Assembly: GCA_024636855.1 (NCBI GenBank)
Contig: JAGXGG010000060.1
Location: forward strand, 36,126 to 100,125
DNA: 64,000 nt
DNA from: Ignavibacteriota bacterium
Lineage (GTDB): Bacteria > Bacteroidota > Ignavibacteria > Kapaibacteriales > UBA2268
Direction: 5' to 3'
Shown here: piece after piece, positions 19,653-21,757 of the stretch
Position numbering within the stretch: the stretch's first letter is position 1
Layout: every line of letters starts with the position of its first letter
The notes under the pieces: model-generated
What the model was told of the DNA's origin: nothing
What the model saw: the letters and a program-made list of their open reading frames with translations, nothing else
Databases searched by the model: none
Program-made: the position numbers and the translations under genes

Positions 19653-20303
19653 ATGAAGTTTATTTCTTTACTAATTGTATTGTTTTTATTTTTTTCAGAA
19701 TTACTTTTCTCAAGACCAAATAGGGTTTCACAAATCCCTTATGGCGAAAAATTCCAGTGCTCTAGTTGTCATGTAAGTCCAAATGGTGGTGGTCAACGAA
19801 CTCCTTTTGGAGAAACTGTAAATGATAATCTTGGTTCACCCATTTCAACGGCAAATGTGCGTTGGGATTTAATATTCAATATTGATTCTGATGGTGATGG
19901 TTTTACTAATGGGGAAGAGTTACAAGACCCTGATGGACAATGGGCGATTGGACAATCAAATCCTGGAAATCCTGAGTTAGTTTTTCAACCTTGGAATCCA
20001 AACAGTAAACCGACTGTTTCATCAGTTGTAGAAGGCATTGTAAATAACAATGCAACAATTTATCCAGTTCCTTCAAATGGAGTTATAAATTTAGAATATA
20101 TTTCAGATTATTTTGATAATAGCAGATTAGAGTTATTTAATTCTAATGGAAATATAATTCATACTGATAATATGAATACGAAAATAGGTCCAAATAACTG
20201 GACTATAAACTTGAATAATCAATCACTGAATAGTGGTATTTATTATTTAGTACTTAGAAACAAGTATTTTAATATTCGAAAACGAATTGTTTTCACAAAG
20301 TGA
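19653..20303 (+). CDS. Secreted CxxCH-motif protein with thrombospondin-type-3 repeat and T9SS CTD (paralog 1)
   Basis: Signal peptide. CSSCH at residues 36-40 (nt 19758-19772), followed by NGGGQRTPFG. Ca-binding-type repeat DSDGDGFTNGEELQDPDG. C-terminal YPVPSNGVINLEY..GIYYLVLRNKYFNIRKRIVFTK is a T9SS sorting-domain pattern. Confidence 0.65.
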   Translation: MKFISLLIVLFLFFSELLFSRPNRVSQIPYGEKFQCSSCHVSPNGGGQRTPFGETVNDNLGSPISTANVRWDLIFNIDSDGDGFTNGEELQDPDGQWAIGQSNPGNPELVFQPWNPNSKPTVSSVVEGIVNNNATIYPVPSNGVINLEYISDYFDNSRLELFNSNGNIIHTDNMNTKIGPNNWTINLNNQSLNSGIYYLVLRNKYFNIRKRIVFTK

Positions 20304-20316
20304 GATTAAAAAAATC

Positions 20317-20343
20317 AGGCAGCTTTTAAGTTGCCTTTTTTTT
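20317..20343 (+). terminator. Rho-independent terminator after paralog 1
   Basis: Stem AGGCAGC (20317-20323) pairs with GTTGCCT (20330-20336), including one G-U pair, around a 6-nt loop. A T-run extends to 20343. Confidence 0.7.
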
Positions 20344-20508
20344 AATAAAATTATACCTTTTCTAGTCAATTCTTCATAGCTATCTCTCTATTTTGTTATG
20401 TAAAAAATAACATATCTAAAAAATTAAATATTATTCTAAACTCTCTTTAGTCGAAAGGAAAAAATTGCTAATGTTTTTTTCCACAATTATAATTCCTATT
20501 TAGTAAAA

Positions 20509-20540
20509 TTGTATCCTTTTATCTTTTTATGTTATATTTG
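20509..20540 (+). promoter_or_regulatory. Bacteroidetes-type sigma-A promoter candidate for paralog 2
   Basis: TTG (20509-20511), a 21-nt spacer, then TATATTTG (20533-20540), which matches the TAnnTTTG -7 element. It lies about 30 nt upstream of the ATG at 20572. Confidence 0.45.
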
Positions 20541-20571
20541 TATATATATTAATCACAAATCAAGGATAATT

Positions 20572-21216
20572 ATGAAGTTTGTTTTTGTACTGTTTTCGAT
20601 CGTATTTTTAAGTTTTATGTCAGAAACACTATTATCTAAAGAACAATGGGTAAACCAAATCCCTAATGGTCAAGTAAATTCTTGTTCAAATTGCCATGTT
20701 AGTGCTAATGGTGGTGGATCTAGGAATGTTTTTGGAAAAGCTGCTCAAAATTCTATGAGCAATGATAAAATAAGATGGGATAAAATTTTCAATTTAGATT
20801 CTGACGGAGATGGATTTACAAATGGGGAAGAGCTACAAGATCCGGATGGCCAATGGGCTATTGGTCAAGCTGAACCTGGAGTTTCAACATTAGTAACTAA
20901 ACCTTGGGATCCAAATAGTAAACCGACTAAATCATCAGTTTTAGAAAATATAGTAAGTGATAATGCAATAATTTATCCTATTCCATCAAATGGAATCGTA
21001 AATTTAGAATACATTTCAGATTATTTTGATACTAGTAGATTAGAGTTATTCAACTCTAATGGTAGAATTATCTATTCTGATAATATGAATACAAATATTG
21101 GTCCAAATAATTGGACTATAAACTTGAATAATCAATCACTGAATAGTGGTGTTTATTATTTGGTACTTAGAAATAAGTATTTTAACATTCGAAAACGTAT
21201 AGTTTTCTCAAAGTAA
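20572..21216 (+). CDS. Secreted CxxCH-motif protein with thrombospondin-type-3 repeat and T9SS CTD (paralog 2)
   Basis: Start moved from 20509 to the ATG at 20572, which gives MKFVFVLFSIVFLSF, a signal peptide parallel to paralog 1. CSNCH at nt 20683-20697, NGGGSRNVFG, DSDGDGFTNGEELQDPDG, and a T9SS CTD ending YYLVLRNKYFNIRKRIVFSK. Confidence 0.65.
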   Translation: MKFVFVLFSIVFLSFMSETLLSKEQWVNQIPNGQVNSCSNCHVSANGGGSRNVFGKAAQNSMSNDKIRWDKIFNLDSDGDGFTNGEELQDPDGQWAIGQAEPGVSTLVTKPWDPNSKPTKSSVLENIVSDNAIIYPIPSNGIVNLEYISDYFDTSRLELFNSNGRIIYSDNMNTNIGPNNWTINLNNQSLNSGVYYLVLRNKYFNIRKRIVFSK

Positions 21217-21227
21217 GTTTTAAAATT

Positions 21228-21255
21228 AAGGCAGCTAATTTAGCTGCCTTTTTTT
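21228..21255. terminator. Bidirectional rho-independent terminator between convergent genes
   Basis: Perfect 10-bp stem AAGGCAGCTA (21228-21237) with TAGCTGCCTT (21241-21250) and a 3-nt loop. T-run 21249-21255 on the plus strand and an A-rich left flank. It sits between the stops at 21216 (+) and 21257 (-). Confidence 0.75.
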
Positions 21256-21256
21256 A

Positions 21257-21757
21257 TTAAAAATTTCTACCATATATTATAGCATCACTTTTGGTTCCAT
21301 CCATATCTAATACTTTTGGCATATAGCCCCATAGAGAGAATCCAAATTTCTTAAGTAAATATATACTATGCTGATTGTTAGCTAAAAGTATAGCAAATAA
21401 AGAATCAAAATTTATTTTGGAGCGAGAATTGATAACATATTTCAATAAACCAGAGCCCACACCTTTTCCAGTATGATTGCTATCTATATAAAAGCTTACT
21501 TCTTTCGATTTTAGATAAGCCCTACGGTTTGCTCGATAAGGAGATATAGAAATCCATCCTATTACTTCATCATTTAGTATAGCTACAAAAATGGGATATT
21601 CTGTTAGATCACGATTTTTAAATTTTTCATGATATGCTCTAAGCATAATTTCATCTAGTATCGCATTCTGCCGATTTCTAATACCCTCATTATAGATTTC
21701 TACAATACTCTTAGTATCATTTATTGTAGCCAATCTAATTGAAATATTCTTAAGCAT
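21257..21757 (-). CDS. GNAT family N-acetyltransferase (phosphinothricin/MSO acetyltransferase-like)
   Basis: 166 aa. IRLATINDTKSIVEIYNEGI start and acetyl-CoA motif HTGKGVGSGLL, typical of PAT-like GNATs. Confidence 0.75.
   Translation of the reverse strand: MLKNISIRLATINDTKSIVEIYNEGIRNRQNAILDEIMLRAYHEKFKNRDLTEYPIFVAILNDEVIGWISISPYRANRRAYLKSKEVSFYIDSNHTGKGVGSGLLKYVINSRSKINFDSLFAILLANNQHSIYLLKKFGFSLWGYMPKVLDMDGTKSDAIIYGRNF

What the first reader, a model, noticed from the sequence alone, without database searches (positions are those of the whole stretch)
19653..21216. Tandem paralogs combining a CxxCH heme-c motif, a thrombospondin-type-3 Ca-binding repeat and a T9SS sorting domain
Both ORFs have a signal peptide. 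Each then has a conserved Q-I-P-x-G...C-S-x-C-H-V-S-x-N-G-G-G-x-R-x-x-F-G block (CSSCH at nt 19758-19772, CSNCH at nt 20683-20697). An identical DSDGDGFTNGEELQDPDGQWAIGQ segment and a T9SS CTD follow. CxxCH is the covalent heme c attachment motif, and DxDxDGxxDxxD is the TSP3-type calcium-binding repeat. A small monoheme-like module exported to the cell surface by the T9SS would be an unusual cargo class, possibly a surface redox or heme/metal-binding protein. The two genes are a recent duplication or are being homogenised. The last ~75 residues differ at only ~10 positions by hand alignment, while the N-terminal third is much more diverged. Each copy has its own terminator, and copy 2 has its own TTG-N21-TATATTTG promoter-like motif. 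A single CxxCH can occur by chance, but its conservation in both diverged N-terminal regions, within a conserved block, argues for function.
Basis: partly seen in the sequence, partly recalled or inferred. Interest (0 to 1): 0.6.

Follow-up and report, generated by a model that had tools for sequence, protein, structure and literature searches.

The report
Surface-exported temptin-like haem-motif protein pair
Two neighbouring genes of a Kapabacteria-like bacterium encode small proteins sent to the cell surface, whose head domain is a bacterial relative of the sea-slug pheromone protein temptin and carries an invariant haem-attachment motif beside a calcium loop, so it is probably an unrecognised kind of small cytochrome, though nobody has shown that it binds haem.

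Summary
Both genes (19653-20303 and 20572-21216) encode a signal peptide, a ~100-aa head and a T9SS type-A C-terminal sorting domain (CTD). The head is not an orphan: it is Pfam Temptin_C (PF24784), in a family of about 1,500 50%-identity clusters.

CxxCH occurs in every full-length bacterial homologue examined. Eukaryote-type homologues keep only the His and have a disulfide pair instead. The "TSP3 repeat" is really an EF-hand-type loop inside the domain; its invariant residues fall on positions 1, 3, 5, 6, 9 and 12.

The genome encodes Ccm system I and a T9SS core, but 99% of the phylum has cytochrome c maturation genes, so that test is uninformative. In other genomes the gene sits beside a CxxCH-headed porin, or after a PSCyt1-like/YceI/DUF5777 trio.

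The duplication is old, and only the CTD is homogenised by gene conversion.

Best reading (about 0.55): a calcium-stabilised monohaem c domain with a new fold, displayed on the cell surface. Arguments against:
- no conserved sixth ligand;
- no match to any known cytochrome family or fold;
- no experiment.

The parts
19653..20303 (+). Copy 1 gene (216 aa): signal peptide, Temptin_C head, linker, T9SS type-A CTD
   Evidence: ORF; Pfam PF24784 E 2.4e-11 (res 22-103) and PF18962 E 5.3e-8 (res 136-212); falls in the 'upstream-copy' orthologue clade
19653..19712 (+). Copy 1 Sec signal peptide (about 20 aa, MKFISLLIVLFLFFSELLFS)
   Evidence: Read from the sequence; no dedicated predictor was run
19758..19772 (+). 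CSSCH (C36-H40), candidate haem c attachment site of copy 1
   Evidence: column invariant
19884..19919 (+). EF-hand-type Ca2+ loop DSDGDGFTNGEE of copy 1 (D78-E89)
   Evidence: invariant D/D/D/G/N/E at loop positions 1, 3, 5, 6, 9, 12; TSP3_bac below cut-off
20058..20300 (+). T9SS type-A C-terminal sorting domain of copy 1 (res 136-216)
   Evidence: PF18962 and TIGR04183 above cut-offs; beta-sandwich model matches the PorU CTD and DUF3244
20317..20346 (+). Terminator-like hairpin plus T-run after copy 1
   Evidence: 8 pairs, 4 G-C, T8
20509..20540 (+). Bacteroidota-type promoter-like motif TTG-N21-TATATTTG upstream of copy 2
   Evidence: weak, since TAnnTTTG occurs about once per kb in the window
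20572..21216 (+). Copy 2 gene (214 aa): signal peptide, Temptin_C head, linker, T9SS type-A CTD
   Evidence: PF24784 E 6.2e-14 (res 22-109) and PF18962 E 4.7e-8; falls in the 'downstream-copy' orthologue clade
20683..20697 (+). CSNCH (C38-H42), candidate haem c attachment site of copy 2
   Evidence: invariant C38, C41, H42
20797..20832 (+). EF-hand-type Ca2+ loop DSDGDGFTNGEE of copy 2 (D76-E87)
   Evidence: changing the three Asp to Ala lowers the Pfam score by 13.4 bits
20971..21213 (+). T9SS type-A CTD of copy 2 (res 134-214); homogenised with the copy 1 CTD
   Evidence: 88% identity to the paralogue CTD against 65-73% to orthologue CTDs; dS 0.5 against 1.1-1.5 in the head
21228..21260 (+). 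Terminator-like hairpin plus T-run after copy 2
   Evidence: 10 pairs, 5 G-C

Best explanation
Each gene encodes a small cell-surface protein. A Sec signal peptide takes it to the periplasm. There the ~100-aa Temptin_C head folds around a Ca2+ ion held by an EF-hand-type loop. The genome's Ccm system I is inferred to attach one haem c to the invariant CxxCH, with its His as proximal ligand. The C-terminal beta-sandwich CTD is then recognised by the T9SS (SprA, PorV and PorU are all present). The folded holo-protein crosses the outer membrane, the CTD is removed, and the head is anchored on or released from the surface. The most likely role is a surface redox or ligand-binding haem module, for electron exchange with extracellular substrates or partners. 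This is suggested by relatives whose orthologue is operon-linked to a CxxCH-headed outer-membrane porin or to a PSCyt1-like cytochrome/YceI/DUF5777-barrel trio.

Shown here: domain identity, motif invariance, and the presence of Ccm and T9SS.
Inferred: haem attachment, Ca2+ binding, surface location and redox role.

The pair is an old tandem duplication kept as two orthologous lineages, with gene conversion confined to the sorting domain.
For: - Temptin_C and T9SS CTD both score above curated cut-offs.
- CxxCH occurs exactly once in 120/120 close homologues, and is present in all full-length bacterial representatives examined, with the two inner residues variable (21 variants). That pattern is typical of a haem c site.
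- Repeat proteins carry 4-7 units, each with its own CxxCH and Ca loop.
- C38, C41 and H42 are invariant, as are D76, D78, D80, G81, N84 and E87, which are EF-hand loop positions 1, 3, 5, 6, 9 and 12.
- The genome has CcmC-like, CcmE, CcmF and a TlpA/CcmG-like thioredoxin on contig C62, plus about 15 other CxxCH proteins.
- The T9SS core is present.
- In three genomes the orthologue lies in the same orientation downstream of the ccm genes: directly after ccmF in L007/L022 and G164, and roughly 1.7 kb beyond it by my estimate in G040.
- Recurrent gene order: TEMPTIN then a CxxCH-porin in 15 of 79 loci; PSCyt1 (CX4CH), YceI, DUF5777 then TEMPTIN in 11 loci.
- The haem-motif segment is profile-similar to the head of that porin (hhalign probability 96%, 26 columns).
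- NCBIfam's nearest model is called a dihaem protein (weak match).
- In longer relatives the head is always N-terminal, on Ig-like stalks or with surface-sorting tails.
- Temptin replaces the DOMON domain in lophotrochozoan DBH-like monooxygenases (PMC2762978). This fits an electron-donor role.
Against: - No invariant Met or second His is available as a sixth ligand. Only 79 of 246 domains have any Met or His between CxxCH and the Ca loop.
- No known cytochrome c family or fold matches: Cytochrome_CBB3 E 0.05-0.2; no PDB sequence hit; Foldseek finds nothing for a confident domain model with pLDDT 89.9.
- Eukaryote-type homologues lack both Cys, and the Pfam model does not reward them: C38A -0.8 bits, C41G +2.8 bits. 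The fold therefore does not need covalent haem.
- AlphaFold models the apo domain confidently.
- The presence of Ccm is uninformative, because 297 of 301 genomes in the phylum have it.
- ccm adjacency is rare.
- This genome lacks the CxxCH-porin, and its PSCyt1/YceI/DUF5777 trio is unlinked.
- I found no paper on a T9SS-exported c-type cytochrome or on bacterial temptin-like proteins.
Confidence: 0.55

Rival explanations
1. It is a non-haem metal-binding surface domain. Cys-x-x-Cys-His, with the conserved His, would bind copper, iron or zinc, and the protein would serve metal capture, delivery or sensing at the cell surface.
For: - The His is kept in eukaryote-type homologues that lack the Cys pair, so it acts as a ligand independently of thioether bonds.
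- A weak CopD-like membrane protein (E 8e-5, below cut-off) lies divergently upstream in Melioribacter-type loci.
- Animal temptin is fused to copper monooxygenases (PMC2762978).
- There is no conserved sixth haem ligand.
Against: - The exact CxxCH spacing is kept through more than 250 diverse sequences and in every unit of the repeat proteins.
- Neighbouring genes carry haem motifs rather than known metallochaperone domains.
- The CopD-like match is below its cut-off.
- No Met-rich or extra Cys/His ligands are conserved.
Confidence: 0.17
2. It is a purely structural Ca2+-binding adhesion or signalling head, like the proposed role of animal temptin as a protein-complex 'glue'. The CxxC would form a stabilising disulfide and there would be no cofactor.
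For: - Animal temptin is described as a disulfide-bonded water-borne pheromone component (cited in PMC2762978).
- The apo model is confident.
- The domain sits on Ig-like stalks or dockerins, as adhesins do.
- In this window there are no redox partners next to the genes.
Against: - A structural disulfide does not explain the invariant adjacent His, which is kept even where the Cys are lost.
- Eukaryotic forms place their disulfide elsewhere, flanking the Ca loop.
- The gene recurs beside CxxCH and CX4CH proteins.
Confidence: 0.15
3. It is a haem-scavenging or haem-storage surface protein (haemophore-like) that binds haem for uptake rather than for electron transfer, with or without covalent attachment.
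For: - The lack of a sixth ligand would suit an open or five-coordinate haem site.
- It is predicted to be at the surface, through the T9SS.
- From my own knowledge, not tested here: Porphyromonas gingivalis HBP35 is a T9SS cargo that binds haemin.
Against: - Covalent CxxCH attachment is incompatible with haem hand-over.
- No TonB-dependent haem receptor or hmu/hus genes recur beside the gene in 79 loci.
- These organisms make their own cytochromes.
Confidence: 0.08

Closest known systems
Temptin (Aplysia californica water-borne pheromone-complex protein) and Pfam PF24784 Temptin_C
   Same: There is whole-domain homology, above the Pfam gathering score, covering profile positions 3-94 of 98. 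The shared features are the IPNG motif, the His, GGGxRNxFG, a Trp, and the DSDGDGxTNGEEL(Q/G)DP calcium loop.
   Different: The bacterial proteins have CxxCH where eukaryote-type members have xxGH. They also lack the Cys pair that flanks the Ca loop in eukaryote-type members; introducing those Cys raises the Pfam score by 12 bits. The bacterial proteins carry a T9SS sorting domain. No pheromone role is expected.
Cyc2-type fused cytochrome-porins (monohaem head plus 16-strand barrel; Keffer et al. 2021, PMC8406198)
   Same: The short N-terminal CxxCH head is preceded by a PxF-type motif. The unnamed CxxCH-porin encoded next to temptin-like genes in Melioribacteraceae has that architecture, and its head matches the temptin haem-motif segment in profile comparison. 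Both imply haem at the outer face of the envelope.
   Different: The window proteins have no barrel. The neighbour porin does not fit the Cyc2 consensus spacing (AxPxFAR[Q/K][T/Y]-5-CxxCH, then PxL), has no annotation, and is absent from this genome. Haem binding is proven only for Cyc2.
NCBIfam NF041762, GEGP motif-containing dihaem protein
   Same: There is a weak local match (E 4.4e-5) running from the CxxCH to the Ca loop. Curators read that CxxCH as a haem site.
   Different: The score is 15-23 bits against a cut-off of 300, so these are not members. They have one motif, not two, and a different architecture.
T9SS type-A cargo proteins (for example gingipains, and the haemin-binding HBP35 of Porphyromonas gingivalis)
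   Same: They share a Sec signal peptide with a C-terminal Ig-like beta-sandwich CTD, and the translocon, shuttle and sortase genes are present.
   Different: The cargo here is a ~100-aa putative cytochrome head rather than an enzyme or adhesin. In this genome only these 2 of 126 or more CTD-bearing ORFs have CxxCH. The HBP35 comparison rests on my own knowledge.
DOMON domains of DBH-like monooxygenases and cellobiose dehydrogenase (haem b or electron-transfer heads)
   Same: This is a functional analogy only. Temptin occupies the DOMON position in lophotrochozoan DBH-like enzymes (PMC2762978).
   Different: No sequence or fold relationship was detected, and DOMON domains bind haem b non-covalently.

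Membership tests
Pfam PF24784 Temptin_C | HMM score above the gathering threshold (27 bits) over most of the profile | tested here: met
   44.4 and 52.7 bits, profile positions 5-87 and 3-94 of 98; 54.6 bits for the excised domain
Pfam PF24784 Temptin_C | Conserved His and DxDxDG calcium loop | tested here: met
   H42A costs 4.0 bits and D76A/D78A/D80A costs 13.4 bits against the Pfam model; both features are invariant in homologues
Pfam PF24784 Temptin_C | Cys pair flanking the Ca loop (the disulfide of eukaryotic temptins) | tested here: not met
   F73 and G93 stand at those positions; putting Cys there raises the score by 12.1 bits. Eukaryote-type P0285 and P0287 have the Cys. The window genes therefore belong to a distinct bacterial CxxCH branch of the family.
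T9SS type-A cargo (TIGR04183 / PF18962 Por_Secre_tail) | CTD model above cut-off at the extreme C-terminus | tested here: met
   TIGR04183 29.7 and 29.6 bits (cut-off 23); PF18962 33.5 and 33.7 bits (cut-off 27); the match ends 2-4 residues before the stop
T9SS type-A cargo (TIGR04183 / PF18962 Por_Secre_tail) | N-terminal Sec signal peptide | tested here: inconclusive
   Hydrophobic N-termini of 20-22 aa can be read from the sequence; no signal-peptide predictor was available
T9SS type-A cargo (TIGR04183 / PF18962 Por_Secre_tail) | The genome encodes the T9SS translocon, shuttle and sortase | tested here: met
   SprA 769.8 bits, PorV 258 bits (summed), PorU 807.8 bits, all above cut-offs
c-type cytochrome (functional class) | CxxCH motif in an exported protein, conserved in homologues | tested here: met
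c-type cytochrome (functional class) | Cytochrome c maturation system in the genome | tested here: met
   CcmC-like, CcmE (CPSKY variant), CcmF and a thioredoxin-like protein on C62. This does not discriminate, since 297 of 301 genomes in the phylum have PF01578.
c-type cytochrome (functional class) | Conserved distal axial ligand (Met or His) | tested here: not met
   No invariant Met or second His; only 79 of 246 domains have either between CxxCH and the Ca loop. Five-coordinate c-type haems exist, so this weakens the haem reading but does not exclude it.
c-type cytochrome (functional class) | Sequence or fold match to a known cytochrome c family | tested here: not met
   Cytochrome_CBB3 E 0.05-0.2; no PDB sequence hit; no Foldseek PDB hit for the domain model
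c-type cytochrome (functional class) | Covalently bound haem demonstrated | not testable with these tools
   Needs haem staining, pyridine haemochrome or mass spectrometry
Thrombospondin type-3 repeat (PF18884 TSP3_bac) | HMM above cut-off (25 bits) and a DxDxDGxxDxxD repeat | tested here: not met
   19.6-21 bits. There is a single loop with Asn at position 9 and Glu at position 12, which is the EF-hand pattern, and it lies inside the Temptin_C domain.
NCBIfam NF041762 GEGP dihaem protein | Score above 300 bits and two haem motifs | tested here: not met
   15.1 and 22.8 bits; one CxxCH

The most novel reading that the evidence does not exclude
The bacterial branch of the temptin family would be an unrecognised class of small monohaem c-type cytochrome. 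It would have its own fold and a built-in EF-hand Ca2+ site. It would be displayed on the cell surface by T9SS CTDs, and in other phyla by dockerin or MYXO-CTERM-like tails. It would act as the outermost station of envelope electron-transfer modules (CxxCH-porin, or PSCyt1/YceI/DUF5777). Animal and protist temptins, including the temptin head of lophotrochozoan DBH-like monooxygenases, would then be descendants that lost the thioether Cys but kept the axial His.
Probability: 0.35. Interest if true: 0.8.

Novelty: new variant of a known kind. Interest (0 to 1): 0.55.

Why it matters
If the head really carries haem c, three things follow.

1. A family of more than a thousand sequence clusters, now labelled "T9SS sorting domain-containing protein" or "hypothetical", becomes a new cytochrome fold.
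2. The T9SS gains holo-cytochromes as a cargo class. This gives Ignavibacteriota, Kapabacteria and other FCB-group bacteria a previously unseen route for putting redox centres on the cell surface, which bears on iron, humic-substance and electrode respiration in sediments and aquifers.
3. It would suggest a redox origin for the animal pheromone protein temptin, and for the temptin head of mollusc and annelid DBH-like enzymes.

If the head does not bind haem, the locus is an ordinary member of a catalogued domain family of unknown function.

Tried and rejected
- Full-length structure search returned only CTD-type beta-sandwich hits such as the PorU CTD and DUF3244, which say nothing about the head. 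The domain-only model had no PDB neighbour.
- Sequence search of the PDB gave only chance hits with E about 1.
- The test "the genome must have Ccm" passes, but I rejected it as evidence after finding PF01578 in 297 of 301 genomes of the phylum.
- ccm adjacency looked striking in the first locus. It holds for only 1 of 80 fetched loci and 2 of 19 genomes, so it counts as anecdotal support only.
- "Recent duplication" is rejected. The tandem pair is syntenic in a relative at 61% identity, and each copy groups with its own orthologues.
- "The identical 24-aa block reflects gene conversion" is rejected, because dS there is about 1.5.
- The TSP3 repeat assignment is rejected: it scores below cut-off and the ligand pattern is EF-hand-like.
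- Literature searches for temptin plus haem or CxxCH, T9SS plus c-type cytochrome, T9SS/multihaem/Ignavibacteria, and DUF5777 found nothing relevant. The Melioribacter roseus multi-omics paper does not mention such a protein.
- Model coordinates are not exposed, so I could not inspect a haem pocket.
Full report
**Observation**

The region holds two co-directional ORFs, 19653-20303 (216 aa) and 20572-21216 (214 aa). The mechanical ORF list starts copy 2 at a TTG at 20509. The ATG at 20572 is the likely start, because both genes then begin MKF, both are preceded by AAGGAT, and they align from residue 1.

- The proteins are 69% identical.
- The 24-residue DSDGDGFTNGEELQDPDGQWAIGQ block is identical in both copies.
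- Each gene is followed by a G+C-rich hairpin and a T-run. Four terminator-like sites were found in 1.85 kb against 0.4 expected.
- TTG-N21-TATATTTG lies at 20509-20540. The -7-like octamer occurs about once per kb in this 31% GC window, so it is weak evidence.

**What the proteins are**

Both match two Pfam families above curated cut-offs. Temptin_C (PF24784) covers residues 22-103 in copy 1 and 22-109 in copy 2. Por_Secre_tail, the T9SS type-A sorting domain (CTD), covers the last ~80 residues; TIGR04183 agrees.

The "thrombospondin type-3 repeat" is only a sub-threshold TSP3_bac match of 19.6-21 bits against a cut-off of 25. In an alignment of 50 homologues the invariant residues D76, D78, D80, G81, N84 and E87 fall on positions 1, 3, 5, 6, 9 and 12 of a canonical EF-hand loop. 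The motif is therefore an integral EF-hand-type calcium loop of the Temptin_C domain, not a separate TSP3 repeat.

An AlphaFold model of the whole protein (pLDDT 84.5) gives a beta-sandwich CTD that matches the PorU CTD and DUF3244 structures. A model of the head alone is confident (pLDDT 89.9, pTM 0.82). It has no Foldseek neighbour in the PDB and no PDB sequence relative.

**Size of the family and conservation of CxxCH**

A word-indexed search found 266 full-length relatives. Most have the same Temptin_C plus T9SS CTD architecture and come from Kapabacteria, Ignavibacteria, Melioribacteraceae, Calditrichota and Bacteroidota. An exhaustive phmmer search with the 100-aa head found 1,557 50%-identity clusters at E <= 0.001, of which 658 had E <= 1e-10.

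CxxCH occurs exactly once in 120/120 of the first set, with 21 different inner-residue pairs. It occurs once in 137 of the 142 new representatives. The five exceptions are:
- one N-terminally truncated fragment;
- one spurious eukaryotic repeat protein;
- three proteins with 2, 4 and 7 CxxCH; in the 4- and 7-motif proteins each ~82-aa repeat unit has its own CxxCH and Ca loop.

**The eukaryotic branch differs**

I probed the Pfam model with point variants of the copy 2 head:

| Variant | Change in score (bits) |
|---|---|
| C38A | -0.8 |
| C41A | +1.6 |
| C41G | +2.8 |
| H42A | -4.0 |
| D76A/D78A/D80A | -13.4 |
| Cys introduced at F73 and G93 | +12.1 |

The Pfam model, which is weighted towards eukaryotes, thus expects xxGH and a Cys pair flanking the Ca loop.

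A search restricted to short proteins recovered two such eukaryote-type sequences. P0285 has ...KAIGH... and LCCGDSDGDG...GDPCCVW. P0287 has ...NAVGH... and LCSLDSDGDG...GDPNCTW.

The His is therefore universal, and the two Cys are specific to the bacterial branch. This cuts both ways. The fold does not need covalent haem. The His behaves as a ligand that outlives the Cys, which a purely structural CxxC disulfide would not explain.

**Prerequisites in this genome**

The assembly (3.1 Mb, 110 contigs, 96% complete) encodes a Ccm system I cluster on contig C62. The cluster comprises a CcmC-like protein with a WGxxWxWD motif, CcmE, CcmF and a TlpA/CcmG-like thioredoxin. The genome also has about 15 other credible CxxCH proteins, including an ACIII-type pentahaem, cbb3 oxidase subunits and dihaem peroxidases. 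SprA, PorV and PorU are all present above cut-offs.

Of at least 126 ORFs with a CTD like this one, only these two also have CxxCH.

Maturation genes are nearly universal in the phylum. PF01578 is present in 297 of 301 genomes, and Temptin_C in 20 of 301. The 20/20 co-occurrence therefore carries no weight.

**Context elsewhere**

In the window the pair lies between an AI-2E-family transporter gene and a GNAT acetyltransferase gene. That arrangement, including the tandem pair, is syntenic in a relative at 61% identity.

Across 79 usable loci from named genomes, two operon-like arrangements recur.

1. In 15 loci the temptin-like gene is followed within 8-50 nt (about 640 nt in one locus, L079) by a ~370-aa protein. 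These loci include the cultured Melioribacter sp. Ez-97 and OK-6-Me and Rosettibacter primus. The protein has an N-terminal ALPRFAxxQxDxCxxCHxNPTGG head and a porin-like body. It has no Pfam or NCBIfam match. It has at least 532 relatives, and every one that a source names is called hypothetical.
2. In 11 loci the gene follows, or in three of them is neighboured by, a trio. The trio is a PSCyt1-like lipoprotein with CX4CH, a YceI-like protein and a DUF5777 barrel.

This genome has that trio, unlinked, on C11:36733-38591. It has no CxxCH-porin.

A profile-profile comparison aligns the temptin haem-motif segment with the porin head (hhalign probability 96%, 26 columns). The porin architecture resembles Cyc2, whose head was shown experimentally to bind haem c. 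It does not fit the Cyc2 consensus spacing (PMC8406198).

In three genomes the gene lies in the same orientation downstream of the ccm genes: directly after ccmF in two, and roughly 1.7 kb beyond it by my estimate in G040. That is supportive but rare.

In longer relatives the head is always N-terminal. It sits on Ig-like, PKD, FN3 or cadherin-like stalks, or is joined to CHRD or dockerin domains, or ends in a MYXO-CTERM-like tail. This points to surface display.

In lophotrochozoan DBH-like monooxygenases a temptin domain stands where DOMON normally sits (PMC2762978). That fits an electron-donor role.

**Evolution of the pair**

- Overall dS is 0.69.
- The identical 24-aa block has dS about 1.5 and dN 0.07. 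It is identical because of purifying selection, not recent conversion.
- In a maximum-likelihood tree copy 1 groups with the upstream copies of other genomes and copy 2 with the downstream copies. Support is moderate, 81-88.
- By region, the heads follow orthology: 80-81% identity to orthologues against 62% to the paralogue.
- The CTDs follow the genome: 88% within this window and 93% within L010, against 65-68% between the two. The third genome, L008, shows no such effect.

The duplication is therefore old. Gene conversion, or co-adaptation to the local secretion machinery, is confined to the sorting domain. The lower dS of the CTD (0.5) favours conversion.

**Mechanism and rivals**

The best-supported reading is a Sec-exported, Ccm-matured, calcium-stabilised monohaem head that the T9SS puts on the cell surface, probably for redox exchange. 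I put it at about 0.55.

The main counter-evidence is:
- no conserved sixth ligand;
- no similarity to any known cytochrome;
- Cys-free eukaryotic relatives;
- no experimental data or literature.

The rivals are a non-haem metal site (0.17), a cofactor-free Ca-binding adhesion or signalling head (0.15) and a haemophore-like protein (0.08).

**Relation to earlier notes of this scan**

I consulted the earlier notes. Several agents met the same family in other genomes and reached similar readings. These are unchecked AI notes, so I do not count them as evidence. The four-gene module and the invariance of CxxCH were found independently here.

**Verdict**

The finding is real and more than chance. 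It is a typical member of a large, catalogued but unstudied bacterial branch of the temptin family. The haem interpretation is plausible and testable but unproven.

Noticed in passing
L017:9842-11736 (also L018, L020, L023, L026, L027, L030, L032, L034, L044, L046, L049, L057, L078, L079): In Melioribacteraceae and other Ignavibacteria the temptin-like T9SS gene is followed, within 8-50 nt in all but L079 (about 640 nt), by an unannotated ~370-aa protein. It has an N-terminal ALPRFAxxQxDxCxxCHxNPTGG head and a porin-like body, which is a Cyc2-like architecture. It has at least 532 relatives, and every one that a source names is called hypothetical. It has no Pfam or NCBIfam family.
   Followed up: partly
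L019:7756-10609; own genome G000:C11:36733-38591 (outside the window): A trio recurs directly upstream of temptin-like genes in 11 loci: a PSCyt1-like lipoprotein with CX4CH, a YceI-like protein and a DUF5777 barrel. The window's genome has the trio, but on another contig and unlinked to the temptin pair.
   Followed up: partly
window 20058-20300 and 20971-21213: Concerted evolution is confined to the T9SS sorting domains. Paralogue CTDs are 88% identical here and 93% in L010, against 65-68% between those two genomes. The heads follow orthology instead.
   Followed up: yes
G000:C62:8998-9396 (near L001/L002, outside the window): CcmE carries CPSKY in place of the usual HxxxY haem-binding motif. 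This is the Cys-type CcmE variant known from some archaea and Desulfovibrio (my own knowledge). The CcmC-like protein is long, at 359 aa, with an N-terminal extension.
   Followed up: no
P0272; P0266-P0268 (homologues, not in the window): Other phyla attach the same CxxCH/Ca-loop head to different C-terminal tails. One is a MYXO-CTERM-like GCSS...RRRR tail. Another is a short conserved ...SSVEEWRFY / ...IEEWMFY C-terminus of unknown meaning.
   Followed up: no
P0169 and P0239 (homologues, not in the window): These proteins are built from 7 and 4 tandem ~82-aa units, each with its own CxxCH and DSDGDG loop. They look like beads-on-a-string multihaem-type versions of the module.
   Followed up: partly
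window 20188-20203 and 21101-21116, minus strand: The terminator scan flags the same short hairpin (GTCCA(A/G)TTATTTGGAC) inside both CTD-coding regions. It lies in the conserved GPNNWT codons and is probably incidental.
   Followed up: no
L055:6647-8618: A Candidatus Kapaibacterium MAG carries three tandem temptin-like T9SS genes that cluster together in the tree. This is an independent, more recent local expansion.
   Followed up: partly
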